From Burkholderiales bacterium (GTDB lineage: Bacteria > Pseudomonadota > Gammaproteobacteria > Burkholderiales > JAEUMW01), in NCBI GenBank assembly GCA_040507665.1, contig JBEVOI010000182.1:1-37343 (forward strand): a DNA stretch of 37,343 nucleotides, read 5' to 3'. Below the pieces are notes generated by a model, which was not told the DNA's origin, searched no databases, and saw only the letters and a program-made list of their open reading frames with translations. Positions 6,154 through 26,430 of the stretch are shown in pieces. Position 1 is the stretch's first letter; each line of letters starts with the position of its first letter. The position numbers and the translations under genes are program-made.

Positions 6154-6912
6154 GTGGATTTCCCTGCACTCGCCTTCAGCCGTGTTGCCAAGCAGTTCGG
6201 CCGCAAGACTGCCCTGGCGGGATTTACGCTGGATGTACAGCCGGGAGAATCGTTTGCGCTGGTGGGCATGAACGGCGCGGGCAAGACGACCCTCCTCAAG
6301 TGCCTGCTGGACTTCTGCGAACCCGACTCCGGCAGCATCAGCGTGTTCGGGGTTGCGCACCGGGAGACCCGCTCCCGGGCACGCCTGTCGTTCCTGCCGG
6401 AGAGGTTCACTCCGCCCTATTTTCTGACAGGACGGGACTTCCTGCGTTACATGCTCGAATTGCAGCGCGTCGCCTATCGGGAGGAGGATGCCATGTCCAC
6501 CCTCGACTCGCTAGATCTCGACCGTACCGCACTCGACGTGCCCGTACGCACATATTCGAAGGGCATGACGCAGAAGCTCGGGCTTGCCGCCTGCCTTCTC
6601 TCCCCCAAGGACCTGTTCGTCCTCGACGAGCCTACCAGCGGCCTGGATCCGAAGGCGCGGGCCCTGCTCAAGGGGCGGCTCAGGGAACTGCGGGCAAGGG
6701 GAAAGGCCGTCTTTTTCACCTCGCATGCCCTTGCAGACGTCGAAGAGATCGGAGATCGCCTCGCGGTCCTGCATCTTGGTGAGCTTCGCTTCGTGGGCAC
6801 CCCGACTGACTTGAAGACACGATATCGTACCCAAAGCCTCGAGGACGCGTACCTCCGCTGCATCGATGTCGAGATCACCGCAACCCCTCCAGCGCTAACC
6901 GCAGCAGTGTGA
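6154..6912 (+). CDS. ABC transporter ATP-binding protein, PilH-like (type IV pilus-associated)
   Basis: GMNGAGKTT, signature YSKGMTQKLGLA, LDEPTSGLDP, FFTSH. Start placed at GTG 6154 because the upstream part of ORF 5890 looks non-coding. No adjacent permease; candidate partner at 23146. Confidence 0.82.
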   Translation: MDFPALAFSRVAKQFGRKTALAGFTLDVQPGESFALVGMNGAGKTTLLKCLLDFCEPDSGSISVFGVAHRETRSRARLSFLPERFTPPYFLTGRDFLRYMLELQRVAYREEDAMSTLDSLDLDRTALDVPVRTYSKGMTQKLGLAACLLSPKDLFVLDEPTSGLDPKARALLKGRLRELRARGKAVFFTSHALADVEEIGDRLAVLHLGELRFVGTPTDLKTRYRTQSLEDAYLRCIDVEITATPPALTAAV

Positions 6913-6982
6913 CGGCTTCCCGCCAATCTGGCACAATTTCGACAGGGCCTTGTCACCAAGGTCGGGAACGATAAGGAGATCT

Positions 6983-8422
6983 GTGGATACCATCAGCCCA
7001 ATCAGGCCCACCCTCGTTATCGTCGATGATGACCCGCTCATCACTGACACGCTCAACTTCATTCTGTCGCGGGATTTCCACGTGTTGGTCGCCCAGTCTC
7101 GCGCCGAGGCGAAAAGCGTCATGCGCCAGCTGGACGAACCGCCGGCGTTGGCGCTGATTGACTTGGGCCTGCCACCGACGCCACACCGCCCCGACGAAGG
7201 ATTCAAGCTCATCACCGAGTTGCTCGCCTATTCGCGCAGTATCAAGATCCTGGTGCTATCGGGGCAGAACGACGAGGCCAACGCGCGCCATGCGCGTACC
7301 CTCGGCGCGATCGAGTTCATCGCCAAGCCATGCGAGCCGGAAAGGCTGAAGGAGATGCTCACGAAGGCCTTGCTCGTGCGCGATGCGGAGCGGCGGGCAG
7401 GGCCGTCGGACATCAAGATTGTCGGCCAGAGCATGCTCATTCAGAAGCTCAAGCAGCAAATCGCCCAGTACGCCAGCGCCCCGTTCCCGGTGCTGATCGA
7501 AGGCGAATCCGGGAGCGGAAAGGAGCTGGTTGCAAACTCGCTGCATCTGCTGTCCGGTCGCGCGGGCAAGCAGTTTTTTGCGCTTAACTGCGCAGCGATC
7601 TCCCCGACCCTAATGGAGCCTACGCTATTCGGCTACACCAAGGGCGCATTCACCGGCGCGCAGGCGCCGCGTTCCGGCTACTTCGAGGACGCCGCCGACA
7701 GCACGCTCTTTCTGGACGAGATCGGCGAACTACCACTCGAGCTCCAGGCGAAGCTATTGCGGGTCTTGGAGAACGGCGAATTCCAGCGCGTAGGCGAGAC
7801 TCACACTCGAGTCAGCAACGCCCGGGTGGTGGCAGCGGCGAACAGGGATCTCCGCGCCGAGATGAAGGCCGGGCGCTTTCGTCCCGATCTCTATCACCGG
7901 CTGTCGGTATTCACCGTTTACGTCCCGCCGCTGCGCGACCTCGGTGAGGACAAGAGGCTGCTGCTCGAGCATTTCGCCGGGTTCTACGCCCGCCAGGCAA
8001 ACATGCCTCGTTTCGAGCTCGACCATCCAGCGACGGAGCTGTGGCTTCAATACGGCTTCCCCGGAAATATCCGTGAGCTGCGCAACATCTGCATTCGCCT
8101 CACCACAAAGTATCCAGGCCAGAAAGTGAACCGCGAGGAACTTCAGTCGGAGTTCGATATGGAGAGCTTCTACGCCCAGACGCCGAGCGACCCAGGCGGT
8201 GCCCAGGATGCAAAGGGACTTCTCGACGGCGCGAAGCGGCATCTCCAGTCCCAGAAGAACTTCAATCTCGATGTCTACTTGCGCATGTGGGAGCAGAGCT
8301 ATGTCGAGGCCGCACTCCACATTACGCACGGCAATCTGTCCCAGGCCGCAAAGCTGCTCGGCATCCACCGCACTACGCTTTACAGCCGGATGCAGAACTA
8401 CGAGCGGGTAGACGACAAGTAA
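6983..8422 (+). CDS. Sigma54-dependent response regulator (REC-AAA+-Fis HTH), PrsR-like
   Basis: Receiver LVIVDDD...IDLGLPP...AKP; Walker A GESGSGKE; GAFTGA; LFLDEIGEL; FPGNIREL; HTH GNLSQAAKLLGIHRTTLY. GTG start at 6983 follows AGGAG. Confidence 0.93.
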   Translation: MDTISPIRPTLVIVDDDPLITDTLNFILSRDFHVLVAQSRAEAKSVMRQLDEPPALALIDLGLPPTPHRPDEGFKLITELLAYSRSIKILVLSGQNDEANARHARTLGAIEFIAKPCEPERLKEMLTKALLVRDAERRAGPSDIKIVGQSMLIQKLKQQIAQYASAPFPVLIEGESGSGKELVANSLHLLSGRAGKQFFALNCAAISPTLMEPTLFGYTKGAFTGAQAPRSGYFEDAADSTLFLDEIGELPLELQAKLLRVLENGEFQRVGETHTRVSNARVVAAANRDLRAEMKAGRFRPDLYHRLSVFTVYVPPLRDLGEDKRLLLEHFAGFYARQANMPRFELDHPATELWLQYGFPGNIRELRNICIRLTTKYPGQKVNREELQSEFDMESFYAQTPSDPGGAQDAKGLLDGAKRHLQSQKNFNLDVYLRMWEQSYVEAALHITHGNLSQAAKLLGIHRTTLYSRMQNYERVDDK

Positions 8423-8484
8423 GCTCCCTTCGCGGGGTGCGATCGCGCCCCACGGTCCAGCTGCCGAAGTTGCCGAGAACATCA

Positions 8485-10023
8485 GTGTATTACGAATAGT
8501 TCGGGCTGGACCGCCCTCCGTTCAAGATCACTCCCGACACCGACTTCTTCTTCGCCGGCGGCAATCGTGGCGCTGTACTGGAAGCGCTGATGTACGCGGT
8601 TACCCAGGGCGAGGGTATTGTCAAGGTTACGGGTGAGGTGGGCAGCGGAAAGACGATGCTCTGCCGAATGCTTCAGTCTCGCCTTCCCGCAAACATCGAG
8701 CAGGTCTACCTCGCGAACCCGAGCGTTTCGCCCGAGGATATCCTGCACGCCATCGCATTCGAGCTTGGCCTCCATACGGCCCGCGACGCGAGCCGCATTG
8801 AGCTCATGCACAAGCTGCAGGAACATCTCGTGAAGCGCCACGGTGAAGGGCGCCAAGTAGTAGTTTTTGTGGAAGAGTCCCAGAGCATGCCAGTTGCGAC
8901 GCTCGAGGAGATCCGCCTGCTGTCAAACCTCGAGACGCAGCACCATAAACTTCTCCAGATTGTCCTCTTCGGTCAACCGGAACTGGATGAGATCCTCGCC
9001 CAGCCGAACATCCGCCAGCTGCGGGAGCGCATTGCCCATAGCTTCTCGCTGCAACCCCTTCGCACCGAGGAAATCCGTGAGTACCTGATGTTTCGCTTGC
9101 GCGCAGCCGGTTACCGAGGACCCGACCTGTTCTCGCCGAAGCTTGTGCGCTACATCGCGGACACGACGGGCGGGCTCACCCGCCGCGTCAACCTCGTCGC
9201 GGACAAGGCTCTGCTGGCTGCCTTTGCAGGCAGCACCCACACGGTGACGCTCGCTCACGTGCAGGTGGCAGTGCGGGACAGCGAATTCAGCCCCAAGAGA
9301 ACCCCTGGAACTTCGCGCTGGATGCCCGCCATTGGCCTACTTTCGATCGGTGCTGCCTTGGGAATCGCGGCTTTCTGGTGGCTCGGTGGGCCGCGCCCGG
9401 TCTCGGTAACCGCACCCGCCGGGGTCACTTCGGGCAATTCGTCGTTGGCCGGCCAATCAGCTTCGACGACCGGTTCGAACGCTTCGGTCGCCGAGGTACC
9501 CGCAGCAGGAGGCCGTACCAAGTCCTTGTCTGCGTCGGAATTCCCGGCCGCCGCCGGGTCAGCGGCGCGGATGACGCCTTCCCCATCCTCGGCAGCGCCT
9601 GCAGCACCCTTGTCCGGCGCGTTGGCGCCTCACTCTTCGAACTCCGATCATTTGGGACCCTCTACTGATTCGCCACCAGACGTACCCGCTGACATCCTCA
9701 GGGCAAGGTTGGCCGCTACCGATGATTGGCTTGGGAAGGCGGGCAAAAGCCGATTCACCATACAGCTCATCTCGGCGGCGGACAATCCAGATGACCTGAA
9801 GCGATACCTCAACTACCTGGGGAAATTTATTGAAAGCGATGAGGTGTATGTGTACCGTACCCGCATCCAGGGGAGGTCTTATCTGACAGTGGTATACGGG
9901 ACCTTTCCAAGTCGTCAAGCCGCGCAGTTGGCCTTGGACCGACTCCCGGAAGACGTGAAGACTTATCGCCCTTATGTGCGCTCGGCACCCGGCATCCGGT
10001 ACGAAGCGCCGCAAAAGCGGTAG
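8485..10023 (+). CDS. ExeA/MshM-family AAA+ ATPase with TM segment and C-terminal SPOR-like domain; in-frame TAG at 8497-8499 (open ORF from ATG 8590)
   Basis: GTG TAT TAC GAA TAG TTC GGG... = (M)YYE*FGLDRPPFKITPDTDFFF in frame with ORF 8590..10023. Walker A GEVGSGKT, LQIVLFGQPEL, RQLRERI; C-terminal FTIQL...YLTVVYGTFPSRQAA...LP...PYVRS resembles SPOR. Confidence 0.85.
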
Positions 10024-10055
10024 CTTAACGTCGGTCGGGAAGGGCCGGGAGCGAC

Positions 10056-10071
10056 GGGTACCATACTTGCT
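10056..10071 (+). promoter_or_regulatory. Putative sigma54 (-24/-12) promoter upstream of secretin operon
   Basis: GGGTACCATACTTGCT: GG(10057-58)-N10-GC(10069-70) with TTGCT; intergenic, about 75 nt before the secretin ATG. Confidence 0.65.
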
Positions 10072-10144
10072 TTGCCCCGCTCCGCGATCAAAAATGCAGA
10101 CATCTTCGGGAATCTCCCTCTGCAACCCCGGCCCCCAATAAGAG

Positions 10145-11986
10145 ATGACGAGCCTACTACACTCGGGTTTCTGCGGGCGACGTAATTTCGAGCACGTCGT
10201 CTCGACGTTGACACTCGGGTTGTGCGCCCTGCTGTCGAGCTGCGCCTACAGGCCAGTCATCCCCCAATCCGATGCCCACCTCACCACCAGCCGTGTGCTT
10301 TCTCCCGCTGGTGAGCCACCGCCTCCTGTGCGCTCCAGCGGGAATTTCCTTCCACCACCCAAAGCAGCGCCCAAGCCTGCCACGTACAGTGTGGTGGTTA
10401 ACGAAGTACCGGTGCGGGAGCTTCTATTTGCACTCGCCCGGGATACGAAGCAGAACATCGACGTCCATCCAGGGATTAGCGGTCTCGTAACCTTGAACGC
10501 GGTGAACGAAACCTTGCCCGCGATCCTCGACCGCATCGCAAAGCAGGTCAACCTCCGTTATCGTCAGGAAGGCAATACGATCATCGTTCAACCTGATGCC
10601 CCCTTCTCGAGGACGTATCGGGTCAACTACGTGAACATGACGCGAGACACCACGTCGACAGTAGGTGCGACCGTTCAGATCGCGGGCCCGAGTGGGTCGG
10701 GTCAGGTATCGGGCGCGGGCGGTGCGGTTGCGGGCGGTGGCGGGGCTGGCGGCAACGCCTCGTCGACGACGGTTCGCACAACTTCAAAAGGCGATTTCTG
10801 GGAACAGCTCAGGGAAAATATCCGATCCATCGTCTCCGCGAACCGGCAGCTGGCTCAGTCCGCGGATGAGCGCGCAGCCCGAGCGGAAGCAATGCGGGCC
10901 GCCCGCGAAGAGCGGGTTGCCCAAGCTGAGGCAGCGAGCAAGGCCGGCCAATCGGCAGCCGAGCTTTTCTCCACGGCCTTTAGTCAGCCCCCCGCACTCC
11001 CGGGGGACCTGAACAACGAAATCGTGATCAATTCGTTTGCCGGAACCGTTACCGTCCTCGCGACCGAGCGCGAGCATCGTCTTGTCCAGCAGTACCTCGA
11101 CCACGTGCAGACCGCCGTGCAGCGCGAAGTGCTCATCGAGGCGACGATCGCAGAGGTTACGCTGTCCGACGCGTTCCAGGCGGGAGTGGACTGGAGCGTA
11201 ATTACGAATGGGGGGTTGGCGATTACGCAAAACCTCCTTACTGGTACTTTAGCGACGCCCCCCGCCTTCTCCCTCGCTTATGCTAGCGGCAACTTCAAGG
11301 GACTTATCCGCGCCCTGGAGCAATTTGGAAGCACGCAGGTGCTGTCGAGCCCGAAGCTCATGGTGATCAACAACCAGACCGCCCTGCTGAAGGTGGTGGA
11401 CAACATTGTCTACTTCACAATTCAGGCCCAGCAAGGGGTGTCGACCGGTGGGGGCGTTATTCAACCCAACACTTTTACCACGACCCCCCAGACGGTCGCG
11501 GTGGGCGTCATCCTATCGGTGACACCGCAAGTCCACGAGTCGGGTCAGGTAACCCTGACGATTCGCCCAACGATCACCCGCATCCTGAATTTCGTGGATG
11601 ACCCCAATCCGTCACTCTGCACGACTGGTGCCGGCGGGCTGGTGCAGAACTGCATCAAGAATCCGGTGCCTCAGCTGCAGGTAAGGGAGATTGAGTCGGT
11701 GCTGCAAGTGGGCACCGGGCAGACCGTCATTCTCGGCGGCCTGATGCAGGACGACGTGGCACGGGATCGCAGGGGGCTGCCCTACCTGTCCACGCTTCCT
11801 GGCGTGACCGGGACGGCATTTAGCGTTCGGGGCAACGTCACAAAGAAGACCGAACTCGTCATCTTCCTGAAGCCCACCGTAATAACCCATGCCTCGCTGG
11901 AAGCTGACGACCTCAAGTTCTTCCAGCGCTTCCTGCCGGTCTTGGACAAACCTGAGACCCTGCCTCCGCCGCGTAACACCCCATGA
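10145..11986 (+). CDS. Secretin, MshL-like, probable lipoprotein
   Basis: Lipobox-like LCALLSSC; N0-like YSVVVNEVPVRELLFALARD; VLIEATIAEVTL...GVDW; VLSSPKLMVINNQTA; GVILSVTPQ; GQTVILGGLM; KTELVIFLKP. True start may lie further downstream. Confidence 0.92.
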   Translation: MTSLLHSGFCGRRNFEHVVSTLTLGLCALLSSCAYRPVIPQSDAHLTTSRVLSPAGEPPPPVRSSGNFLPPPKAAPKPATYSVVVNEVPVRELLFALARDTKQNIDVHPGISGLVTLNAVNETLPAILDRIAKQVNLRYRQEGNTIIVQPDAPFSRTYRVNYVNMTRDTTSTVGATVQIAGPSGSGQVSGAGGAVAGGGGAGGNASSTTVRTTSKGDFWEQLRENIRSIVSANRQLAQSADERAARAEAMRAAREERVAQAEAASKAGQSAAELFSTAFSQPPALPGDLNNEIVINSFAGTVTVLATEREHRLVQQYLDHVQTAVQREVLIEATIAEVTLSDAFQAGVDWSVITNGGLAITQNLLTGTLATPPAFSLAYASGNFKGLIRALEQFGSTQVLSSPKLMVINNQTALLKVVDNIVYFTIQAQQGVSTGGGVIQPNTFTTTPQTVAVGVILSVTPQVHESGQVTLTIRPTITRILNFVDDPNPSLCTTGAGGLVQNCIKNPVPQLQVREIESVLQVGTGQTVILGGLMQDDVARDRRGLPYLSTLPGVTGTAFSVRGNVTKKTELVIFLKPTVITHASLEADDLKFFQRFLPVLDKPETLPPPRNTP

Positions 11987-13185
11987 GCCTCTTGATGCAG
12001 GCCTTGCAAAAGGCTGCGAAGGAGCGGGAAGGAACAGCCCACTCCTTGAGCGAGGGAAGCGCGATGACCGGCGACCTTTCGCTTGAGCCCCTCGAAGGCG
12101 TTACATCCACGAAGCCCAGCGCAGGGACGTCCGCGTCTGGCTCGCACGGCGGCCCAACCCCGGCTCAGGCGGCCACCGTGCTGCAGAGTGCCGAAGCGGG
12201 ACCTGGAGTCGTTGCATGGCTTCAGGATCATCGCAGGGCGGTATATGGCGGGTTGATTGGGGCCATCTTGCTTGGGTATGGCGCTTACTTTTACGTCTCC
12301 GTCTACCACCCGGGTCTGCTTCGCCGTCCCCTTAGCCCTCAGATCGCAGCGAATGTTCCGCCGGCGGCTCCGTTGCCGCCCGCCGTCCCCGCTCTACCTG
12401 AGGCGACGACAGCTGTCGGGTCTGCAAACGCTCTCCCAGCGAGCTCCGACGCGGCTGCGACCGAGCCAGGGCCGCGGTCGCGCCCTGCGGCACGTTCGGG
12501 AGGCACTGCGGAATCGCGCCCGCGCATGCAGCCTCCAGCGCCGTCAACGACGCCCGGGCCGCGTCAGCCCCACAGCTCCATCGCCGTTAGGCCGGGGGGC
12601 GAAGGACCTAAAATCAGTCCACAGCTCGTCGACGCCTACGACGCTTTGCGCACGGGGCGCATCGAGGACGCCAAGCGGCTTTACGATGCGGTGCTCCTAT
12701 CGGAACCGCGAAATATTGACGCCTTGCTTGGCAGGGCTATGGTCGCCCAACAGCAAGTTGACCTGGACCTTGCCACTCGATACCTCTACCAAGTAATCCA
12801 GCTTGAGCCCTCCAACAGCATTGCACAGGGAGGGCTCATCAACCTGTTGGGCCGCGCGGATCCGCAAAGCGCCGAAAGCCGGCTTAAGTCCTTAATCTCA
12901 AAGGACCCCTCTGCCTTCCTTTACTTTGCACTCGGAAACCTTTACGCGGACCAGGGCAACTGGCCTGCTGCGCAAGCGTCTTATTTCCAGGCGCACCATC
13001 TCCAGCCGGACAGTCCGGACTATGTTTACAACCTCGCGGTGAGCCTCGAGCACCTCAGCCAGCCCAAGCTCGCCCTCAGCTTCTATCGTCAGGCGCTCGA
13101 ACTGGCCAAGTCGGGGGGCCGTGCCAACTTCGACTCTGCCTCGGTTCAGGAACGCGTAGTCAGGCTCGCTGCTGGCGTGGATTAG
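11983..13185 (+). CDS. TPR-repeat protein, MshN-like
   Basis: MSLLMQALQKA N-terminus, TM segment, Pro/Ala-rich linker, C-terminal TPRs (FALGNLYADQGNW..AQ..YFQA; YNLAVSLEHL.Q..LAL.FY.QAL). Confidence 0.8.
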   Translation: MSLLMQALQKAAKEREGTAHSLSEGSAMTGDLSLEPLEGVTSTKPSAGTSASGSHGGPTPAQAATVLQSAEAGPGVVAWLQDHRRAVYGGLIGAILLGYGAYFYVSVYHPGLLRRPLSPQIAANVPPAAPLPPAVPALPEATTAVGSANALPASSDAAATEPGPRSRPAARSGGTAESRPRMQPPAPSTTPGPRQPHSSIAVRPGGEGPKISPQLVDAYDALRTGRIEDAKRLYDAVLLSEPRNIDALLGRAMVAQQQVDLDLATRYLYQVIQLEPSNSIAQGGLINLLGRADPQSAESRLKSLISKDPSAFLYFALGNLYADQGNWPAAQASYFQAHHLQPDSPDYVYNLAVSLEHLSQPKLALSFYRQALELAKSGGRANFDSASVQERVVRLAAGVD

Positions 13186-13187
13186 CC

Positions 13188-20565: not shown

Positions 20566-21348
20566 ATGATTTCCAGGCGCCCGCACCCACTCGCAGCACG
20601 CGGATTCACACTCGTCGAGATGGCGGTGGTCCTGGTTGTGGTCGCGTTGGTGCTCGGTAGTCTGCTCGTGCCGCTCGCAAGCCAGGTCGAGCAGCGCAGG
20701 ATCGATAACACCGCCCAGACGCTCGAACAGGCCCGGGATGCACTGCTCGCATTCGCCGCCGCTCGAGGCCGACTGCCATGCCCCGCCGGGACCGCAAATG
20801 GTCAGGAGGTATTGACCACCAACGCTGCAGCCGGCGACTGTGCAAACTTCTGGGGATACCTGCCTGCGGCGACCCTCGGGCTAAGTCCGCTCGATGCGGA
20901 CGGCTATGCGCGCGATGGGTGGGGTTTGGACCAGAACCGCATTCGTTACGCGGTTCGGAACGCAACCGTCGGCGGGCAGACATTCGTCTTCACGAAGACT
21001 GGGGGCATCAAGGCTGCAGGAATGCCTGCCTTCAACAGCTGGCAGTTCCTCTACGTGTGCAATAGCGGGAGCGGCGTAACGGCCGGCTCCGACTGCGGCT
21101 CTGCGTTCACTCTGACAAGCGAGGCGGTGGCAGTGATCTGGGCAGTAGGACCCAATGCGGCGCTCCCAATGGGAGGCGCAAGTACTGACGAAGCAGAAAA
21201 CCCGAATCCTAACGGGGGGAGTGCGGATCGAATCTTCGTGAGTCGCCCCCGCGCTACCGGGACCGCCGCGGAGTATGACGATCAGATGGTCTGGGTTACG
21301 CCGCCGATTCTCTTCCAGCGCATGATCGCCGCAGGTCAACTACCCTGA
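20566..21348 (+). CDS. Type IV minor pilin / pseudopilin
   Basis: ARG|FTLVEMAVVLVVVALVLG prepilin motif; GRLPCPA, GYLPAATLGL, DGWG..NRIRYAV, YDDQMVWV. Start uncertain (20530 or 20566). Confidence 0.9.
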   Translation: MISRRPHPLAARGFTLVEMAVVLVVVALVLGSLLVPLASQVEQRRIDNTAQTLEQARDALLAFAAARGRLPCPAGTANGQEVLTTNAAAGDCANFWGYLPAATLGLSPLDADGYARDGWGLDQNRIRYAVRNATVGGQTFVFTKTGGIKAAGMPAFNSWQFLYVCNSGSGVTAGSDCGSAFTLTSEAVAVIWAVGPNAALPMGGASTDEAENPNPNGGSADRIFVSRPRATGTAAEYDDQMVWVTPPILFQRMIAAGQLP

Positions 21349-23048
21349 TTCATGGGTGCGAGTTCGAAACAAACGCGCCCTTTCTCGTTCTCCGCAATCG
21401 TCAGCCGGTACCCCAGTTGCTCCGCCTGTTTCGCCGCCTGATACAGTCCGATCCCGAGCCCGGTCTGAGAATTGACCGGTCCGCTGAACAGGTGTGTCGC
21501 CACTGACAGCCCGATCGGGCTTCCGTCGTCGCACACCCGCAGCGAGGAACCCGGTCCGCCGTTCGACAAGTTCGCGGAGATTCGCAGACCCGGCTCGTTC
21601 TTGGCCTTGTTCAGCGCGTTCTCGATTAGATTCTCCGCAACGCTGCTGAAGAGGTCGCCGGGCAATTCGCCTCCCTTCTCTCGGGAAGCGACGCCGAATT
21701 CGATGTTGCTGTCCGCGTAACGCTGCTTCAACTGTTCCCACCAAGCCGTTGCATCCACCATCTCGCTGCGGGAACGGCTCGGCGCCTGCAGCTTATCCAA
21801 GGTAATCTGCAAGCGCTGGGCAATCTGCGGGAGCTGACGTTGCATGAGCGCTTGCAGCTTCTCCGGCTGATGTCCGTTGCTGTACTCCACCGCCGAGCAG
21901 AGAGATTTAAGCGACTGGAGCAGATTCTTGACGTCGTGGGTGAGGCGCGCGCCCGTTTCGAAAATCGCCTGGTGATAGGCGTTCTGCCGTTGCTGCTGCT
22001 CGCGCCACTTCGCTTCGTGAAAATAGCCGAGGAGCTGCGCAAGAAGCTTGAGATGGATCATTAGCGCGGGGCTTAAGGACCAGCGCGTATAGATGTCGAG
22101 CCTGAGCTCCTTGAGCGCAAACTCGGCGTGAAACTTGGATTCGGTTCCGACCTGGCCTTCGCCTTGGGGCGTCTGCCAGCGAACGCCCGCCACCCAAGGC
22201 AGATCCGACATATCCTCCAGGGCGAGGGTAAGGAAGCGCGCTGGTTGAGGCTCCCGTTGTGCGTGCTCGGCGAGATTGCGCATCCAGACCTCAAACGGGA
22301 GTCCGATCGTGAGGAAATAGCGCGAGACGAGATACTTTGCGCCGGCAAATCCGCTGTGAGGGTTCCAGAGCCAACTGAGCGCCATTAGCATGAAAGCGAT
22401 CACGAGCAGCGTCCGCGCGAGCGCGCTCGCATATTCGTCGCCGCTTACAACCTTCAGTACAAAACTCCCGAGCACGAGTGCGGCGACCAGCAGAAACAAG
22501 AGAATGCTGTATAGCAGGTCGACCGCCACCGGCGCCGTCGTCCGGTCGGGTTCTACCTTGATCGGGAGCATCCCGAGGAGCAAGGCCGGCAGCGCGAACC
22601 GAACTAACATCACGATGACTTGAGGAAAGGTCTCGCCGTCGAACAGGTGCGGGACGACCCACATGAGCAAGACGGCGAGGAGGTAAAGGGCGGCGAGAAA
22701 GCCTATCAGGCGCTGGGGACCGCGACGACTTCCGGCAATGCTGCCGCCGATAAGCGCGAACAGAAGGGCGATCCAGACGGCCATCAGCCACCAGTTGCTC
22801 CAAACCACGAAAAGCAACCCAACGCCGACGACAACAAAGGCTTGAAAGAAATCCAGCTTGCGATCGCCGAGCCAAACTGGCTGCCAGAGCAGGAAGAATC
22901 CGAAGTGGGCAAGAAGGAACGCACGCGACCACGATTCGGCGATTTCAAAGGCGAGAGAAGCGTGGAGCGCGAGCAGCATCAACGCCAGAAAGCGCGTTGC
23001 GTGACTGCGGGTGAATGGCGCCTGCGGAAGGGTGGCCTGGGTGTTCAA
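21336..23048 (-). CDS. Membrane sensor histidine kinase, PrsK-like
   Basis: About 8 N-terminal hydrophobic segments; H-box ARLTHDVKNLL; N-box ENLIENAL; G1 VCDDGSPI (degenerate); G2 GLGIGLYQ. Confidence 0.88.
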   Translation of the reverse strand: MNTQATLPQAPFTRSHATRFLALMLLALHASLAFEIAESWSRAFLLAHFGFFLLWQPVWLGDRKLDFFQAFVVVGVGLLFVVWSNWWLMAVWIALLFALIGGSIAGSRRGPQRLIGFLAALYLLAVLLMWVVPHLFDGETFPQVIVMLVRFALPALLLGMLPIKVEPDRTTAPVAVDLLYSILLFLLVAALVLGSFVLKVVSGDEYASALARTLLVIAFMLMALSWLWNPHSGFAGAKYLVSRYFLTIGLPFEVWMRNLAEHAQREPQPARFLTLALEDMSDLPWVAGVRWQTPQGEGQVGTESKFHAEFALKELRLDIYTRWSLSPALMIHLKLLAQLLGYFHEAKWREQQQRQNAYHQAIFETGARLTHDVKNLLQSLKSLCSAVEYSNGHQPEKLQALMQRQLPQIAQRLQITLDKLQAPSRSRSEMVDATAWWEQLKQRYADSNIEFGVASREKGGELPGDLFSSVAENLIENALNKAKNEPGLRISANLSNGGPGSSLRVCDDGSPIGLSVATHLFSGPVNSQTGLGIGLYQAAKQAEQLGYRLTIAENEKGRVCFELAPMNQGS

Positions 23049-23102
23049 TTTGTCAGAACGCTTGTTGCATGCGCAGCCGCGCGAAACGCGTCACGGCGGC
23101 CG

Positions 23103-23114
23103 ATTCTATATAAT
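23103..23114. promoter_or_regulatory. Back-to-back putative -10 elements for the divergent kinase and permease genes
   Basis: ATTCTATATAAT: TATAAT on plus (23109-23114) and TAGAAT on minus (23108-23103) in an AT-rich patch; no convincing -35 boxes. Confidence 0.35.
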
Positions 23115-23145
23115 TTGTGGCTTTAGTCAGCAATCGGCGTTCCAC

Positions 23146-23916
23146 ATGTTGCATCAAATCATCATTATCAGTCGCTTCGTGATACTTGAGGCATGGCGGA
23201 CGCGCCTGCCATGGATCATCGTGACAGCTCTCGCCGTCGCAGCCGGTATCAGCATGTTTGTCAAGGAATTGGCGATCACCGAGAGCAACAGGGTCGAGGT
23301 TGCATTCTTAGCCGAATTGGCACGCCTCTCGGGGGTATTCATCACCGCCCTGTATGTCGTGAGCACCATGGCTCGCGAGTTCAATGATCGCGTCGCGGAT
23401 CTCACTCTGTCGCTGGAGTTGCCGCGCGCGTCCTACGTCCTCGGCAAGCTCGTTGGGTACGGCACCGTCACGATCGCCATCTCAGTGGCGGCCGGGATGC
23501 TACTCTTGCCATTCGCTCACGGAACCGGCCTTCTCACTTGGACCTTGTCTTTGGTGCTCGAGCTGTGGGTCGTGGTGGCACTGAGTCTATTTTGCATCAT
23601 CACCTTCAATCAAGTGATGCCGGCCGCTAGCTTCGTTCTCGCCTTTTATGTTCTTGCCCGCTCCGTCGGTGCCATGCAACTCATCGGCTCCTCGCCACTA
23701 CTTTCCAACGAAGGACTCACTCACCGCTTCACGCAGGGGCTGTTGAATGCCCTCGCGTATGCGCTGCCCGGGCTTGACCGTTTCACTCAAACCAGTTGGC
23801 TGGCGGACGGTGGTGCCAACTTGGGCAGCGTTGGCATCGCCCTTGGGCAGACCGTCGTTTACGTACTCCTACTGGTAGCCGCAGCCCTGTTTGATTTCCA
23901 CAGGAAAAATTTCTGA
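23146..23916 (+). CDS. ABC-2 type permease, PilI-like
   Basis: Six hydrophobic segments; REFNDR...LSLELPRASYVLGKLVG motif typical of ABC-2 permeases; ends AAALFDFHRKNF. ATG at 23146. Confidence 0.8.
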   Translation: MLHQIIIISRFVILEAWRTRLPWIIVTALAVAAGISMFVKELAITESNRVEVAFLAELARLSGVFITALYVVSTMAREFNDRVADLTLSLELPRASYVLGKLVGYGTVTIAISVAAGMLLLPFAHGTGLLTWTLSLVLELWVVVALSLFCIITFNQVMPAASFVLAFYVLARSVGAMQLIGSSPLLSNEGLTHRFTQGLLNALAYALPGLDRFTQTSWLADGGANLGSVGIALGQTVVYVLLLVAAALFDFHRKNF

Positions 23917-23923
23917 CTCCGCG

Positions 23924-24658
23924 ATGAGGCACCGCGAGCAGCGCTCTTGGAAGACGGTGCCGAGGCCGGTGCTAGCAACCCTGGGGATCGGGTTGGCTCT
24001 GCAGATCGGTTGGCATGCAGTACAGCCGAGCCCCAAGGCGCGCGCCGAGGACCTCGGGACACCACCTCCTGCAATTGTGCTCCGTGCAGCGAGCCTCGGC
24101 GATCCTATCTTTCTGGCATACGCGCTGTTGCTGCGGCTCCAGGCGTTCGACAACCAGCCAGGCATCAGTATCCCATTTAAGGATCTCGACTACCCCAGGG
24201 TTATCGATTGGCTAGATGCTCTTCTCACGCTTGATCCCTTGAGCCAATACCCACTGTTGCTGGCCTCGACCGTATACGCGCAGGTGCCCGACGAGGCGAA
24301 GCGAAGGCTGATGCTCGACTTCGCCTATCGCCGCTTCATGGAAGATCCTGTGCGCCGTTGGCCGTGGCTCGCCCACGCCTCCGTCATGGCAAGACATCGC
24401 TTGCAGGACCTGCCGCTTGCTCTTAAGTACGCGCAAGCAATCGCAGATCACGCGCGCGATCCTTCCGTGCCTTCATGGGCTCGACAGATGCACATTTTCC
24501 TGCGCGAGGAAATGGGGGAGCATGAGGCGGCAAAGATCCTTCTCGGGGGTCTGCTTGCGAGCGGGACTATCCAGGATCCCCACGAAGCCGCGTTTCTGCT
24601 GCAACGACTTGAAGCGCTTGAGAAAGCTGAAAAGTCGCCAAATACGCCGAAAAGGTGA
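23924..24658 (+). CDS. Membrane-anchored helical/TPR-like protein, PilG (Myxococcus)/XapA-like ABC accessory
   Basis: N-terminal TM; LRAASLG...LLLRLQAFD, LDALLTLDPLSQYP, DPVRRWPWL; lies between the permease and the pilin. Confidence 0.6.
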   Translation: MRHREQRSWKTVPRPVLATLGIGLALQIGWHAVQPSPKARAEDLGTPPPAIVLRAASLGDPIFLAYALLLRLQAFDNQPGISIPFKDLDYPRVIDWLDALLTLDPLSQYPLLLASTVYAQVPDEAKRRLMLDFAYRRFMEDPVRRWPWLAHASVMARHRLQDLPLALKYAQAIADHARDPSVPSWARQMHIFLREEMGEHEAAKILLGGLLASGTIQDPHEAAFLLQRLEALEKAEKSPNTPKR

Positions 24659-24843
24659 CGATGGCGCAAGCATCGTGGTTCCTGATGCGTGCCCGGTTGA
24701 TTAAAGTTGTGGTAATCAGCCAATCTCACCAGGGTCGGACAGAAAGCAGCATTCCAGCTATCGTCGCCACCTTTTGTGCGCGCGTTGCATTCCGGCAGGC
24801 CTATAGACCGCTCTGTCCGCCGTTTCCCCGGCGCAAGGCTCGT

Positions 24844-24859
24844 CGGCATGCTCCTTGCG
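24844..24859 (+). promoter_or_regulatory. Putative sigma54 (-24/-12) promoter of the major pilin
   Basis: CGGCATGCTCCTTGCG: GG(24845-46)-N10-GC(24857-58), close to TGGCACG-N4-TTGC; about 40 nt before ATG 24900, which has an AGGGA RBS. Confidence 0.75.
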
Positions 24860-24899
24860 AGGACCGCCAAGACCCAACTTTGCTCTCAGGGAATTTCAA

Positions 24900-25592
24900 A
24901 TGAGAAAACAGGCAGGCTTTACGTTGATCGAGATCGCGATCGTGTTGGTGATCATCGGTCTCCTTCTCGGTGGCATCCTGAAAGGTCAGGAACTGATCAC
25001 CGGCGCGAAGGTGCGCAACCTGATTTCCCAGGTCGACGGAGTCAAGGCCGCCTTCTTTGGTTTCCAGGACCGCTATCGTGCCTATCCTGGGGACTATTCA
25101 CAAGCCGCGGCCAATATTGCCGGCGTAACGGCCGGGGGGAACGGTAACGGCCGGGTAGAGGCGATTGGCACGTCTGGGACGACCACGCCGGAAGAGCTTC
25201 TTGTGTGGGACCACCTTTCGCACGCGGGATTCATCACTGGCACCTATACCGCGACGAGTAGCACCGCCGCATCGAGCCCCGCCACGAACCCCGCCAATCC
25301 CTACAACGTGCTCATCCAACTTATCTACGACACCGGGTATGCAGAGGGCACCAGCGCGAGCGCTGGCGTGAGCCGTCACAACGTAAAGACCGGTAGTCAG
25401 GTTCCCGTGGAGATCATGGCTGAGGTAGACCGAAAGGTCGACGATGGACGCGCCAACACCGGTGGTTTTCGCGGCTCCATTTACTCGGGTGGCGGCGGCA
25501 TCGGCACCAGCACGGGGTCATGCTGGGATAATGGCGGCAACTGGCGTACGACCAGTGGAGAAGCGAACTGCGGCGGCGCGAGCCTCCTCTGA
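24900..25592 (+). CDS. Probable major type IV pilin
   Basis: MRKQAG|FTLIEIAIVLVIIGLLLGGILKGQELI; own promoter and terminator; C-terminal Cys pair (GSCWD...ANCGGASLL). Confidence 0.92.
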   Translation: MRKQAGFTLIEIAIVLVIIGLLLGGILKGQELITGAKVRNLISQVDGVKAAFFGFQDRYRAYPGDYSQAAANIAGVTAGGNGNGRVEAIGTSGTTTPEELLVWDHLSHAGFITGTYTATSSTAASSPATNPANPYNVLIQLIYDTGYAEGTSASAGVSRHNVKTGSQVPVEIMAEVDRKVDDGRANTGGFRGSIYSGGGGIGTSTGSCWDNGGNWRTTSGEANCGGASLL

Positions 25593-25617
25593 TCCGACCC
25601 TACAGAATTTACCTTCG

Positions 25618-25650
25618 AAAAGAGCCCGCGACCGCGCGGGCTCTTTTTTT
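25618..25650 (+). terminator. Rho-independent terminator (possibly bidirectional)
   Basis: AAAAGAGCCCGCG-ACCG-CGCGGGCTCTTTT perfect 13-bp inverted repeat with a T7 tract, 25 nt after the pilin stop. Confidence 0.92.
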
Positions 25651-25689
25651 GCCAAAGCAGGACCGACAGCAACCGATTCGGCGATCGCC

Positions 25690-26430
25690 ATGTTGAGAGT
25701 AACGACGCGCAAGCGCCGAGGGCAAAACTGCACGGAAGGAACGCAGAGGGGTTTTACCATTCTAGAAATGGCGATCGTCCTGGTCGTCATTGGCATCCTT
25801 GTTGGCGGCGTTCTGCTGGGGCAGGAACTCATTCTGACCGCCAGGGCACGCAGCCTGATCAACCAGCAGGAAGAACTGCGCGTCGCGTTCTTCAACTTTC
25901 AGGATCGCTACCAATTTCCCCCGGGCGATTACAGCGAGGCCATAGCGCATATTGGTGCTACCCGGAATGGGGATGGTGACGGCCGCATCGAGGGAACCCG
26001 CGAGGGCGGGACCGAGAACATCCTCGTCTGGGAGCACCTTTCGCGGGCGGGATTCATCGGGGGACGCTTCACGTACTCGGCAGCGCCACCGTTCGACAAC
26101 GCCATACCGAGGAGTCCCTTCGGCCCCTTCTTGGATATCGCCTTCGACAACTGGCACGGCGATCCCGCCGCAACCAATCGCAAGATCCACAATATCAAGA
26201 CCGGAAACGGGATTCCGGCCGCCATCCTGGGGGAGGTGGATCTCAAGATCGACGATAGCAAGGCGCTAGCGGGAAGCTTCCAATTTTCCGATTTTAGGAT
26301 CGATGGCGTGCCCTTGATCGCCCTCGGCGCGGGACCCGCATGCGTGAACGACGATTCAGCATCGTTCGGCACCTGGAACGTGGCCACCACCCCATCAGCC
26401 ACGAACTGCGGCGGCGCAACCCTGCTCTAA
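25690..26430 (+). CDS. Second type IV pilin, paralog of 24900-25592
   Basis: ...TQRG|FTILEMAIVLVVIGILVGGVLLGQELI; shares FQDRY..PGDYS.A, VW.HLS.AGFI.G, HN.KTG, EVD.K.DD, NCGGA.LL with the upstream pilin. Confidence 0.9.
   Translation: MLRVTTRKRRGQNCTEGTQRGFTILEMAIVLVVIGILVGGVLLGQELILTARARSLINQQEELRVAFFNFQDRYQFPPGDYSEAIAHIGATRNGDGDGRIEGTREGGTENILVWEHLSRAGFIGGRFTYSAAPPFDNAIPRSPFGPFLDIAFDNWHGDPAATNRKIHNIKTGNGIPAAILGEVDLKIDDSKALAGSFQFSDFRIDGVPLIALGAGPACVNDDSASFGTWNVATTPSATNCGGATLL

What the first reader, a model, noticed from the sequence alone, without database searches (positions are those of the whole stretch)
6154..26430. Chimeric type IV filament system: MSHA-like machine + PilGHI-like ABC exporter + PrsK/PrsR-like sigma54 control
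Seen in sequence: about 20 kb encoding an ExeA/MshM ATPase, secretin, TPR protein, assembly ATPase, platform, three alignment-type proteins, four pilin-like proteins, an ABC ATPase, permease and accessory protein, and a two-component pair. Established: the core resembles Vibrio MSHA (mshIJKLMNEG), but here the order is permuted to M-L-N-E-G-I-J-K. Pilin-linked ABC exporters are known from Myxococcus pilGHI and Geobacter xap genes, and PrsK/PrsR from PEP-CTERM systems. Inference: these three modules form one co-regulated surface-filament or secretion system that fits none of T4aP, T2SS, Tad or canonical MSHA. I know of no experimental description of such a system. No PilT retraction ATPase and no prepilin peptidase are encoded in the locus.
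Basis: partly seen in the sequence, partly recalled or inferred. Interest (0 to 1): 0.88.

Follow-up and report, generated by a model that had tools for sequence, protein, structure and literature searches.

The report
Rearranged MSHA-type pilus locus with add-ons
This is a widely conserved but unstudied variant of the MSHA-type adhesion pilus of soil and freshwater Betaproteobacteria, whose main pilin gene is under sigma-54 control and travels with a small ABC exporter of unknown role.

Summary
The gene inventory is real, with one correction to the layout. The ABC ATPase (6154-6912) and the sigma-54 response regulator sit at the 5' end. The histidine kinase (minus strand), ABC-2 permease, TPR-like accessory protein and two major pilins sit at the 3' end, 16 kb away.

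The three modules belong together:
- The same order recurs in uncultured Burkholderiales: regulator 45/45, kinase-permease-accessory-pilin 39/40 evaluable loci.
- In 20 relatives the ATPase ortholog and the accessory protein co-occur (12 both, 7 neither, 1 accessory only).
- In three genomes of other orders the ATPase lies directly after permease-accessory-pilin.
- A -24/-12 sigma-54 promoter precedes the major pilin in 9/9 genomes.

It is not a chimera outside the known classes:
- The assembly ATPase carries the MshE c-di-GMP motif and is sister (support 1.0) to Aeromonas MshE, apart from GspE and PilB.
- The MSH core set (pilin, E, G, L, M, plus N) is present.
- A locus without a peptidase or PilT is normal for MSH.
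- The PrsK/PrsR label fails. PilS/PilR is the better analogy, and Myxococcus pilA-pilGHI for the transporter.

Verdict: new variant of a known kind, moderate interest. The transporter's role is unknown.

The parts
6154..6912 (+). ABC ATPase of the ABC-2 (DrrA/NodI-like) type; presumed motor of the permease 16 kb downstream
   Evidence: Pfam ABC_tran E 4.6e-24. Best NCBIfam match is the DrrA subfamily, 146 bits, below its cut-off. Orthologs at >=52% identity occur only in genomes that also have the accessory protein. In G311, G302 and G192 it lies directly after permease-accessory-pilin.
6950..8422 (+). Sigma-54-dependent response regulator (receiver + AAA+ + Fis-type HTH)
   Evidence: Pfam Response_reg, Sigma54_activat (E 3.8e-62) and HTH_8. 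GAFTGA motif at residues 232-237. Lies directly upstream of mshM in 45 of 45 evaluable loci.
8590..10023 (+). MshM/ExeA-like ATPase with one membrane helix and a C-terminal SPOR domain
   Evidence: Pfam AAA_22 E 2.2e-28 and SPOR E 4.2e-6. 45% identical to the A. caviae ORF at the MshM position over residues 2-232. TIGR03015 193.8 bits, below its cut-off of 324.5.
10057..10071 (+). Candidate -24/-12 site (GGTAC-N5-TTGCT) 73 nt upstream of the secretin gene
   Evidence: Found in the 4 same-genus sequences scanned (G000, G005, G003, G004) and in none of the other 7. Weak evidence: close kin only.
10145..11986 (+). Outer-membrane secretin, MshL-like
   Evidence: Pfam Secretin, Secretin_N_2 and STN. 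Best NCBIfam match is TIGR02519 pilus_MshL, 226.9 bits against a cut-off of 250.2. GspD scores 140.7 and PilQ 96.6.
11983..13185 (+). TPR protein at the MshN position
   Evidence: Several Pfam TPR families. Conserved position in all syntenic loci.
13188..14897 (+). Assembly ATPase of MshE type with an N-terminal c-di-GMP-binding motif
   Evidence: Pfam T2SSE E 8.6e-124 and MshEN. NF053729 scores 69.1 bits against a cut-off of 38. GspE (524) and PilB (508.3) are both below their cut-offs, the same pattern as A. caviae MshE. In the tree it is sister to A. caviae MshE, support 1.0.
14972..16177 (+). Inner-membrane platform protein (MshG/GspF/PilC family)
   Evidence: Pfam T2SSF, two repeats. 30% identical to A. 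caviae MshG.
16200..17738 (+). PilM-PilN/GspL-like fusion: cytoplasmic actin-like domain, one membrane helix, periplasmic alpha/beta domain
   Evidence: No Pfam or NCBIfam hit. AlphaFold model has pLDDT 85.3. Foldseek best match is P. aeruginosa PilM 5eoy_B, E 1.8e-13, with EpsL/GspL cytoplasmic domains also matched. Membrane helix at 307-325.
17803..18417 (+). Bitopic protein at the MshJ position; family not established
   Evidence: One N-terminal membrane helix. No Pfam hit. hhalign against the A. caviae ORF at the MshJ position gives probability 0.3%. Conserved in synteny.
18414..19067 (+). Secreted or periplasmic protein at the MshK position; family not established
   Evidence: Signal-peptide-like N-terminus read. 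No Pfam hit. Conserved in synteny.
19073..20500 (+). Large (475 aa) non-canonical pilin-like protein, possibly a tip or minor subunit
   Evidence: Hydrophobic N-terminal helix after Gly, conserved as G-(I/V/L)ALLTLLAVV in the same-genus genomes (G000, G003, G004, G005), with no Phe1 or Glu5. No family hit.
20566..21348 (+). Pilin-like protein with a canonical G|FTLVE prepilin motif (minor pilin candidate)
   Evidence: Pfam N_methyl E 1.1e-4. GspH and GspG models match only the N-terminal helix and stay below cut-off. Motif conserved in 14 genomes.
21336..23048 (-). Sensor histidine kinase with about 6-7 N-terminal membrane helices, convergent with the pilus operon
   Evidence: Pfam HATPase_c. 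Seven hydrophobic segments within residues 20-227. PrsK model scores only 40.8 bits against a cut-off of 300. It moves together with permease-accessory-pilin in G019 and G128.
23146..23916 (+). ABC-2 type permease, six predicted membrane helices
   Evidence: ABC2_membrane_3 23.6 bits, below cut-off. 25 of 34 family members match it and 14 of 34 match ABC2_membrane_2. Six hydrophobic segments.
23924..24658 (+). Accessory protein: N-terminal membrane helix plus TPR-like alpha-solenoid, in a family with no name
   Evidence: At least 3295 clusters at E<=0.001; of the best 120 listed, every source-given name is 'hypothetical' and none has a Pfam domain. AlphaFold pLDDT 89.5. Only generic TPR matches: Foldseek E>=0.016 and VIA Z<=10.8. 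Its gene overlaps the permease gene by 4 nt in relatives (coordinates).
24845..24859 (+). Sigma-54 (-24/-12) promoter of the major pilin gene: GGCATGCTCCTTGCG
   Evidence: A GGCA(C/T)-N5-T(T/G)GC site lies 38-61 nt upstream of pilA1 in 9 of 9 genomes with pilA1. The strict motif occurs 27 times in 607,412 nt of both strands, and 9 of those are these sites.
24900..25592 (+). Major pilin candidate pilA1 (230 aa) with short leader MRKQAG|FTLIE and a C-terminal Cys pair
   Evidence: Pfam N_methyl E 3.9e-8. The N-terminal 30 residues are nearly invariant in 13 genomes.
25690..26430 (+). Second pilA-like pilin (paralog of pilA1; start codon uncertain)
   Evidence: Pfam N_methyl. Same C-terminal ...CGGA(S/T)LL ending as pilA1. 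A second copy was seen only in same-genus genomes and G015.

Best explanation
The locus encodes one MSH-class (MSHA-type) type IV pilus machine of a distinct, rearranged lineage. It is inherited vertically between mlaFE and kdsDC in uncultured soil and freshwater Burkholderiales.

Shown:
- The core is MshM-L-N-E-G, then a PilM-PilN fusion protein, two small envelope proteins and two minor-type pilins.
- The assembly ATPase has the MshE-type c-di-GMP-binding N-terminus.
- The major pilin gene has a conserved sigma-54 promoter.
- The locus encodes a GAFTGA-bearing sigma-54 activator and a multi-helix membrane kinase.
- An ABC-2 ATPase, a permease and a membrane-anchored TPR-like protein co-occur strictly with the pilin module.

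Inferred:
- c-di-GMP binding to MshE switches on pilus extension, as in Vibrio cholerae.
- The kinase and regulator set pilin supply through sigma-54, as PilS/PilR do. The kinase perhaps senses pilin in the membrane.
- Prepilins are cut by the genome's single A24 peptidase, encoded elsewhere.
- The three ABC parts form one exporter that serves pilin or pilus biogenesis, like Myxococcus PilGHI. Its substrate is unknown.
- The likely function of the pilus is surface attachment.
For: Composition and families.

MshE identity:
- NF053729 scores 69.1 bits against a cut-off of 38.
- The window ATPase and A. caviae MshE give the same pattern: both below the GspE and PilB cut-offs, both with the c-di-GMP motif.
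- In a FastTree of 25 ATPases, the 10 locus ATPases form a clade (support 1.0). It is sister (1.0) to A. caviae MshE plus one G008 paralog, and separate from the GspE (1.0) and PilB clades.

PilM-like fold of the 16200-17738 protein.

One unit:
- In 10 relatives' loci, ABC ATPase + regulator lie upstream in 8 of 9 evaluable, and kinase-permease-accessory-pilin lie downstream in 8 of 10.
- In the 80 best of 175 related loci: regulator 45/45; ATPase hit in 41 of 46 loci with the regulator; 3' module 39/40.
- The 3' module moved as a block in G019.
- The ATPase lies directly after permease-accessory-pilin in G311, G302 and G192.
- In 20 relatives: ATPase ortholog in 12, accessory protein in 13, both in 12, neither in 7.

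Sigma-54 control:
- Promoter in 9 of 9 genomes with pilA1.
- GAFTGA motif in the regulator.
- rpoN lies 4.4 kb downstream.

Parts supplied from elsewhere: peptidase and PilT. Denise et al. state that all MSH loci lack a peptidase (PMC6668835, passages).
Against: - The secretin (226.9 vs 250.2 bits), MshM and platform proteins all score below the NCBIfam cut-offs.
- The Aeromonas ORFs at the MshI/J/K positions find nothing in the window by tblastn at E<=1e-3. The J-like protein shows no profile similarity to the Aeromonas ORF at the MshJ position.
- The MSH reference in the tree is a single unannotated Aeromonas locus, labelled by me from gene order and family scores. MacSyFinder was not run.
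- The ATPase-permease-accessory complex is inferred from co-occurrence only. The complex prediction could not be run.
- Exceptions exist. L099 has mlaF directly next to the regulator with no ATPase. L059 shows no ATPase hit in 628 nt upstream of the regulator. L074 lacks the 3' module. G012 has permease-accessory without the kinase. G010 has only L-N-E-G-I-J.
- No pilus, no expression level and no c-di-GMP binding has been shown for any member.
Confidence: 0.78

Rival explanations
1. It is a secretion machine: a T2SS-like pseudopilus that pushes proteins through the secretin, rather than a surface pilus.
For: - The pilin-like proteins match GspH and GspG models at the N-terminus.
- The large pilin-like protein lacks Glu5, as GspK does (recalled, not from a call).
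- The fused PilM-PilN protein resembles GspL; EpsL and GspL cytoplasmic domains match at E about 1e-8.
- There is an ExeA-like ATPase.
- No retraction ATPase lies in the locus.
Against: - GspE, GspD, GspF, GspG and GspH all score below their cut-offs.
- The genome has a separate T2SS whose ATPase passes the GspE cut-off (704.8 vs 630.25).
- The locus ATPase sits with MshE, not GspE, in the tree.
- There are only four pilin-like genes, and none matched GspI, GspJ or GspK in NCBIfam.
- The c-di-GMP motif is the MshE hallmark.
Confidence: 0.08
2. The ABC ATPase, permease and accessory protein are a separate envelope transporter. It is merely linked to the pilus genes because both lie between mla and kdsD-lpt, and it has no role in the pilus.
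For: - The locus lies between two lipid/LPS transport clusters.
- The ATPase is 16 kb from the permease in the window.
- ABC-2 exporters usually move lipids, glycans or drugs (general knowledge).
- G012 keeps permease-accessory without the kinase.
Against: - In G019 the permease and accessory gene left the mla-kdsD site together with the kinase and pilin.
- In G311, G302 and G192 the pilin gene lies between the accessory gene and the ATPase gene.
- No ATPase ortholog (>=52% identity) and no accessory protein was found in the 6 of 20 relatives that lack the pilus protein and both ABC markers; G013, 68% complete, has the accessory protein without it. G010 has a reduced core and lacks them too.
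Confidence: 0.07
3. One reading: a chimeric type IV filament system that belongs to none of the known classes.
For: - The gene order is permuted relative to Vibrio and Aeromonas.
- I/J/K-position proteins are unrecognisable by sequence.
- There are two add-on modules.
- The 10 locus ATPases form their own clade.
- G008 also carries an Aeromonas-type MshE-MshG pair, so the two lineages can coexist.
Against: - The clade is sister to canonical MshE with support 1.0.
- It shares the c-di-GMP motif, the MshL-best secretin, MshM and MshN.
- The single-locus layout and missing peptidase are MSH traits.
- A sigma-54 two-component system and an ABC transporter beside a pilin gene are already known from Myxococcus and Geobacter T4aP clusters (PMC6060248 and PMC5585712, passages).
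Confidence: 0.1

Closest known systems
MSHA (mannose-sensitive haemagglutinin) type IV pilus of Vibrio cholerae and Aeromonas (mshHIJKLMNEGF-BACDOPQ)
   Same: - MshE-type ATPase with the c-di-GMP motif.
- MshL-like secretin, ExeA-like MshM, TPR MshN and the MshG platform.
- All in one locus, with no prepilin peptidase or PilT.
- Identity to the A. caviae locus: MshE 40%, MshM 45% (AAA part), MshG 30%, MshL 26%.
   Different: - Order is M-L-N-E-G-I-J-K instead of I-J-K-L-M-N-E-G.
- I/J/K-position proteins are not recognisable by sequence.
- Four pilin-like genes here, against about eight ORFs after mshG in A. caviae.
- The major pilin is about 225 aa and sigma-54-driven.
- The two-component system and the ABC-2 transporter with its TPR-like partner are additions.
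- No counterpart to the A. caviae ORFs at the MshH and MshF positions was found by tblastn.
Myxococcus xanthus T4aP cluster pilS/pilR-pilA-pilG-pilH-pilI (and Geobacter pilR/pilA with xapD)
   Same: A sigma-54 two-component pair, a pilin gene, and an ABC ATPase, permease and accessory gene all lie next to each other. The role of that transporter is also unknown there (PMC6060248, passages; GSU1501 xapD beside pil genes, PMC5585712, passages).
   Different: The machine class there is T4aP with PilB/PilT. Homology of the three ABC parts to PilH/PilI/PilG was not tested, because no reference sequence was on hand. NCBIfam gave no hit for the permease or the accessory protein.
PilS/PilR of Pseudomonas aeruginosa
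   Same: A multi-helix membrane kinase, an NtrC-family activator with GAFTGA, and a -24/-12 promoter in front of the major pilin gene.
   Different: Orthology was not tested. The kinase gene here is convergent with the pilus operon, 13 kb from the regulator gene. That PilS senses pilin is recalled from memory (Kilmury and Burrows 2016, not seen here).
PrsK/PrsR of PEP-CTERM/exosortase systems
   Same: A sigma-54 activator and a multi-helix kinase. The MshM-like ATPase is related to the PEP-CTERM-associated ATPase TIGR03015 (193.8 bits).
   Different: All three score below their cut-offs: 332.9 vs 502.6, 40.8 vs 300, and 193.8 vs 324.5. None of the proteins scanned matched an exosortase or PEP-CTERM protein family.
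Rearranged MSH clusters noted in Sideroxydans ES-1 and Gallionella ES-2
   Same: Betaproteobacterial MSH-like clusters described as 'significantly rearranged' relative to Vibrio and Pseudoalteromonas, with function unknown (PMC3770913, passage).
   Different: That paper gives no gene list ('data not shown') and does not mention ABC or sigma-54 genes in the passages I read. I did not check whether those clusters are of this type.

Membership tests
MSH class of type IV filaments (MacSyFinder TFF-SF definition, Denise et al. 2019) | MshE-type assembly ATPase | tested here: met
   NF053729 c-di-GMP motif scores 69.1 bits against a cut-off of 38. Sister to A. caviae MshE with support 1.0, separate from GspE and PilB. 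The reference is one unannotated Aeromonas locus that I labelled from order and scores.
MSH class of type IV filaments (MacSyFinder TFF-SF definition, Denise et al. 2019) | MshL secretin | tested here: inconclusive
   TIGR02519 is the best family, but at 226.9 bits it is below the cut-off of 250.2. 26% identical to A. caviae MshL.
MSH class of type IV filaments (MacSyFinder TFF-SF definition, Denise et al. 2019) | MshM (ExeA-like ATPase), MshG platform and a type IV pilin (mshA) in the same locus | tested here: met
   AAA_22, T2SSF and N_methyl Pfam hits. 45% and 30% identical to A. caviae MshM and MshG. The MacSyFinder profiles themselves were not run.
MSH class of type IV filaments (MacSyFinder TFF-SF definition, Denise et al. 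2019) | Single locus without a prepilin peptidase | tested here: met
   No Peptidase_A24 in the window; one elsewhere, on C18. The trait is stated in PMC6668835.
MSH class of type IV filaments (MacSyFinder TFF-SF definition, Denise et al. 2019) | MshI/J/K accessory proteins | tested here: inconclusive
   The I-position protein has a PilM/GspL-like fold. The J-position protein has no detectable likeness to the Aeromonas ORF at that position. The K-position protein was not tested.
Type II secretion system | GspE, GspD and GspF equivalogs | tested here: not met
   524 vs 630.25, 140.7 vs 351.35 and 297.8 vs 424 bits. A true GspE lies on contig C340 (704.8 bits).
Type IVa pilus | PilB and PilQ equivalogs, with a PilT partner | tested here: not met
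   PilB 508.3 vs 675.65 and PilQ 96.6 vs 284.35 bits. PilB proteins of G008 and G010 form a separate clade. No PilT lies in the locus.
PEP-CTERM PrsK/PrsR regulatory pair | Scores above the TIGR02916 and TIGR02915 cut-offs | tested here: not met
   40.8 vs 300 and 332.9 vs 502.6 bits.
PilS/PilR-type control of pilin expression | Sigma-54 activator with GAFTGA, and a -24/-12 promoter before the major pilin gene | tested here: met
   GAFTGA at 232-237. Promoter in 9 of 9 genomes. rpoN is present. Binding and activation were not tested.
PilGHI-type pilin-linked ABC transporter (Myxococcus) | Homology of the ATPase, permease and accessory protein to PilH, PilI and PilG | not tested
   No reference sequences were available to me. 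Only the gene content and the position beside the pilin gene are alike (PMC6060248).

The most novel reading that the evidence does not exclude
This is a separate, ancient MSH sub-class ('MSH-2'), common in soil and freshwater Burkholderiales and other Gammaproteobacteria orders. In it a dedicated ABC-2 exporter with a membrane-anchored TPR partner is an obligatory part of pilin handling. For example, it could extract, proof-read or export pilin, or export a pilin-linked molecule, under a pilin-sensing kinase. That would add an ABC transporter as a true machine component of a type IV filament. It would also explain the long-unexplained PilGHI requirement in Myxococcus.
Probability: 0.3. Interest if true: 0.7.

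Novelty: new variant of a known kind. Interest (0 to 1): 0.45.

Why it matters
Type IV filaments are central to attachment, biofilm formation and DNA uptake. The MSH class is known experimentally almost only from Vibrio, Aeromonas, Pseudoalteromonas and Shewanella (recalled).

Here a sister lineage turns out to be a stable chromosomal feature of many uncultured soil, bog, sediment and rhizosphere Betaproteobacteria:
- 13 of 20 relatives carry the pilus protein.
- The accessory protein occurs in 38 of 300 further genomes sampled from the class.
- Its family has at least 3295 clusters at 90% identity.

The lineage always carries three proteins of unknown role: the ATPase, the permease and the TPR-like anchor. 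The tight link between pilin gene, membrane kinase and ABC exporter gives a testable handle on two questions: what pilin-linked ABC transporters do, and how sigma-54 and c-di-GMP together set piliation in environmental bacteria. It is not a new kind of machine.

Tried and rejected
- Single-protein scan of genome contigs with the I-position protein: 56 pattern matches, none confirmed. The scan with an 8-row alignment succeeded.
- Profile of the I-position protein against PDB sequences: nothing below E 0.14. Only the fold search identified it.
- Profile of the J-position protein against PDB and hhalign against the Aeromonas ORF at the MshJ position: nothing. Its family stays open.
- Profile of the permease against PDB: best is the PmtD ABC-2 permease at E 0.29, not significant.
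- Accessory protein:
  - Foldseek against PDB gave no match at E<=0.001.
  - VIA wide gave only generic helical-repeat matches, Z<=10.8, below the roughly 13 advised for repeats.
  - ESM Atlas gave own-family clusters named 'hypothetical', and TPR clusters only at 0.89.
  - tblastn against plasmids gave no match.
- A first sigma-54 scan demanding 9 of 12 consensus letters missed the pilA1 promoter. Reading the aligned upstream regions found it.
- A TGGAAC-N5-TTGCT site on the minus strand at 23129-23144, upstream of the kinase gene, is conserved only within the genus. I make no claim for it.
- Sigma-70 and terminator scans: counts are not above the shuffles, so no operon boundaries were drawn from them.
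- RNA evidence: two metatranscriptome runs of one study (X19, X20) hold short contigs of 150-317 nt at depth 2-3.5. They have 0-6 differences, and lie over the kinase, permease, accessory, pilA1 and pilA2 genes and the spacer after pilA2. These are contigs of an RNA library in which DNA may be present. They show neither transcription, nor starts, nor levels, so I make no claim. Parts without cover mean nothing.
- Habitat: 20 of 23 listed runs hold part of the stretch, from 11 studies, and 6 runs hold half or more of its words. They come from soil and bog metagenomes. The best holders may be the source of the window.
- Complex prediction (ATPase against permease + accessory protein) did not complete, so nothing can be said about binding.
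- Literature searches that found no description of this combination. The supplementary tables of Denise et al. 2019 list every detected system.
- Papers:
  - PMC3770913, PMC6668835, PMC6060248 and PMC5585712: passages only.
  - PMC4624765 (c-di-GMP and MshE in V. cholerae): search listing and start of the abstract only.
  - Recalled and not seen: Wu et al. 1998 (pilH), Kilmury and Burrows 2016 (PilS), Wang et al. 2016 (MshEN motif), Haft et al. 2006 (PEP-CTERM), Rollefson et al. 2011 (xap).
- The sigma-54 consensus, the GAFTGA motif and the two-part MshEN motif wording are recalled.

Full report
**What is in the window.** The window is the whole of contig C326 of a metagenome-assembled genome (2.79 Mb, 365 contigs, 84% complete). 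Pfam and NCBIfam scans of the long ORFs, together with a reading of all frames, give this map:
- mlaF and mlaE, with an MlaC-like gene further upstream, on the minus strand, ending at 5816
- ABC ATPase 6154-6912
- sigma-54 response regulator 6950-8422
- MshM/ExeA-like AAA_22+SPOR protein 8590-10023
- secretin 10145-11986
- TPR protein 11983-13185
- assembly ATPase 13188-14897
- platform 14972-16177
- three family-less proteins: 16200-17738, 17803-18417, 18414-19067
- a 475-aa non-canonical pilin-like protein 19073-20500
- a pilin-like protein 20566-21348
- a histidine kinase on the minus strand 21336-23048
- an ABC-2 permease 23146-23916
- a family-less accessory protein 23924-24658
- two paralogous pilins, 24900-25592 and 25690-26430

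Downstream lie kdsD, kdsC, lptC, lptA, lptB, rpoN, hpf, ptsN, hprK, rapZ and ubiX.

The layout differs from what the title suggests. The ABC ATPase and the regulator are at the 5' end. The kinase, permease and accessory gene are at the 3' end, 16 kb away.

**Which class the machine belongs to.**
- The assembly ATPase scores below the cut-offs of both GspE (524 vs 630.25) and PilB (508.3 vs 675.65). It passes the MshE-related c-di-GMP motif model (69.1 vs 38). Its N-terminus shows the two tandem Leu/Gly-rich repeats.
- For a canonical reference I used an Aeromonas caviae chromosome filed among the plasmids. It has the order I-J-K-L-M-N-E-G followed by pilin genes. Its MshE gives the same score pattern: 526, 524.2 and 73.6 bits.
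- I built a FastTree (LG+gamma) of 25 ATPases. These were 10 locus ATPases, the A. caviae MshE and ExeE, the genome's own GspE and a fourth ATPase type from contig C62, two PilB above cut-off, and 9 unlabelled paralogs. One 259-aa fragment was dropped.
- In that tree the locus ATPases form a clade with support 1.0. It is sister, with support 1.0, to A. caviae MshE plus a paralog in G008. GspE and PilB form separate clades (run, read).
- The secretin's best family is MshL, just under its cut-off (226.9 vs 250.2). MshM, MshN and MshG counterparts are present.
- The 512-aa protein after the platform has no family hit. It folds with pLDDT 85.3 into three parts: an actin-like domain that matches PilM (5eoy_B, E 1.8e-13) and the GspL/EpsL cytoplasmic domains, one membrane helix, and a periplasmic alpha/beta domain. 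This is the PilM-PilN/GspL arrangement.
- The next two proteins could not be assigned.
- Denise et al. 2019 set mshA, E, G, L and M as the mandatory MSH genes. [quoted passage not shown]
- This genome has one A24 peptidase on C18 and PilT-type ATPases on C26 and C76.

By these tests the locus is an MSH-class system of a separate lineage. It is not a system outside the known classes. MacSyFinder itself was not run.

**Whether the three modules belong together.**
- The PilM-like protein is found in 13 of 20 relatives, in 10 of 16 genera counting the window's own.
- In 10 fetched loci the whole order recurs between mlaF and kdsD. ABC ATPase + regulator are upstream in 8 of 9 evaluable loci (G011 is cut by a contig end; G010 lacks them). 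Kinase-permease-accessory-pilin are downstream in 8 of 10.
- A scan of one genome per species found 175 related loci. The best 80 are all uncultured Betaproteobacteria or Burkholderiales by record title, with a few obviously mislabelled bins.
- Among those 80:
  - The regulator lies directly upstream of mshM in 45 of 45 evaluable loci.
  - An ATPase hit lies upstream of the regulator in 41 of 46.
  - Of the 5 without a hit, L049, L074 and L079 are cut by the locus end, L059 shows no hit in 628 nt, and L099 has mlaF directly adjacent.
  - The 3' module follows in 39 of 40; the exception is L074.
- In G019 the block kinase-permease-accessory-pilin sits on another contig in the same internal order. 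In G012 permease-accessory follow the minor pilin without a kinase.
- Across the 20 relatives:
  - ATPase orthologs (52-80% identity) occur in 12 genomes. The other genomes have only paralogs at <=41%, or none.
  - The accessory protein occurs in 13.
  - Both occur in 12 and neither in 7. One genome, G013 (68% complete), has the accessory protein only.
  - Kin are not independent, so this is a pattern, not a statistic.
- The accessory protein is also present in 38 of 300 further genomes sampled from the class. That tally includes the unpublished G079 and G181.
- In six of those, from other orders:
  - G311, G302 and G192 have permease-accessory-pilin followed immediately by the ATPase gene.
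  - G106 has the ATPase gene 1.3 kb upstream of the permease.
  - G128 has kinase-permease-accessory-pilin only.
  - G309 has minor pilin-permease-accessory.
- The ATPase gene is thus next to the permease module in some lineages and at the far end of the locus in the window's lineage. That is what one expects of partners, and it ties the transporter to the pilin gene.
- The ATPase is of the DrrA/NodI type that works with ABC-2 permeases. The permease family matches ABC2_membrane_3 in 25 of 34 members and ABC2_membrane_2 in 14 of 34.

**Regulation.**
- The regulator has a receiver domain, a sigma-54 interaction domain with GAFTGA at 232-237, and a Fis-type HTH.
- The kinase has about seven hydrophobic segments in its first 230 residues, then a catalytic domain.
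- Upstream of pilA1, all 9 genomes that have the gene carry GGCA(C/T)-N5-T(T/G)GC, 38-61 nt before the start codon. The surrounding spacers are otherwise unalike outside the genus.
- The strict motif occurs 27 times in 607,412 nt of both strands, and 9 of those are these sites.
- The window's site is 24845-24859. rpoN lies 4.4 kb downstream, in its usual lpt-rpoN-hpf-ptsN cluster.
- The PrsK/PrsR label fails the family cut-offs. The functional analogy is PilS/PilR.

**The unknown parts.**
- The accessory protein belongs to a family of at least 3295 clusters; in the best 120 listed, every source-given name is 'hypothetical protein' and none has a Pfam domain.
- It models with pLDDT 89.5 as one membrane helix plus a TPR-like solenoid. 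The matches are only generic.
- Its gene overlaps the permease gene by 4 nt in relatives.
- What the transporter moves is not known. The same is true for Myxococcus PilGHI (PMC6060248, passage) and for the ABC gene xapD beside the Geobacter pil genes (PMC5585712, passages).

**What is known in print.**
- Emerson et al. 2013 noted that Sideroxydans ES-1 and Gallionella ES-2 have MSH-like clusters with 'a significant gene rearrangement' and unknown function, data not shown (PMC3770913, passage).
- Denise et al. 2019 do not use the terms 'ABC transporter' or 'sigma' at all (0 occurrences).
- Six searches found no description of an MSH-type locus with these two add-on modules.

**Verdict.** The inference that the modules form one system is supported by comparative evidence. 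The claim of a chimeric system outside all classes is not supported. I file it as a new variant of a known kind: an MSH-class pilus lineage with a sigma-54-driven pilin module and a pilin-linked ABC-2 transporter. Confidence is 0.78 for identity and unity. It is lower for the mechanism of the transporter. Interest is moderate (0.45). The system is widespread and unstudied, and it offers a clean handle on pilin-linked ABC transporters, but it is built from known parts.

Noticed in passing
G000 contig C62 (locus L126:3349-5046 minus strand, with L126:5043-6233): The same genome has a fourth type IV filament ATPase (565 aa). It is below the GspE and PilB cut-offs and has no c-di-GMP motif. It sits next to a GspF-like platform gene, and groups with an unlabelled ATPase of G010 (support 1.0) outside the MSH, GspE and PilB clades.
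   Followed up: partly
G008 contig C6 (locus L144:9070-11979): One relative that has the window-type locus also carries an Aeromonas-type MshE (58% identical to A. caviae MshE, split into two frames at about residue 452) and MshG (50%), with short pilin genes. The two MSH lineages can therefore coexist in one genome.
   Followed up: partly
window 30638-30651: A strict GGCAC-N5-TTGC site lies about 190 nt upstream of the rpoN start (30839), inside the end of lptB. It may be chance: such sites occur once per roughly 22 kb.
   Followed up: no
window 23129-23144 (minus strand): TGGAACGCCGATTGCT lies in the 97-nt spacer between the divergent kinase and permease genes. It is conserved in the same-genus genomes only. 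A TATA(A/C)T-like box is also conserved there.
   Followed up: partly
window 5817-6153 and related loci: The whole pilus locus sits between the mla phospholipid-transport operon and the kdsD-kdsC-lptCAB-rpoN cluster in at least 6 genomes of 4 families (G005, G004, G008, G020, G018, and G000 itself). This is a stable chromosomal site among envelope-biogenesis genes.
   Followed up: partly
G004 contig C16: In this 65%-complete same-genus genome the kinase, accessory, MshM and kdsD genes each match in several shifted pieces. This points to frameshifts from assembly errors or to decay of the locus.
   Followed up: no
G311 (locus L153, between the kinase and the permease): A 2.1-kb insert separates the kinase and permease genes. 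It holds an ORF ending in a hydrophobic stretch followed by an Arg-rich tail, as read by eye in the DNA printed, plus repeated GTAGGTCGGG-type elements.
   Followed up: no
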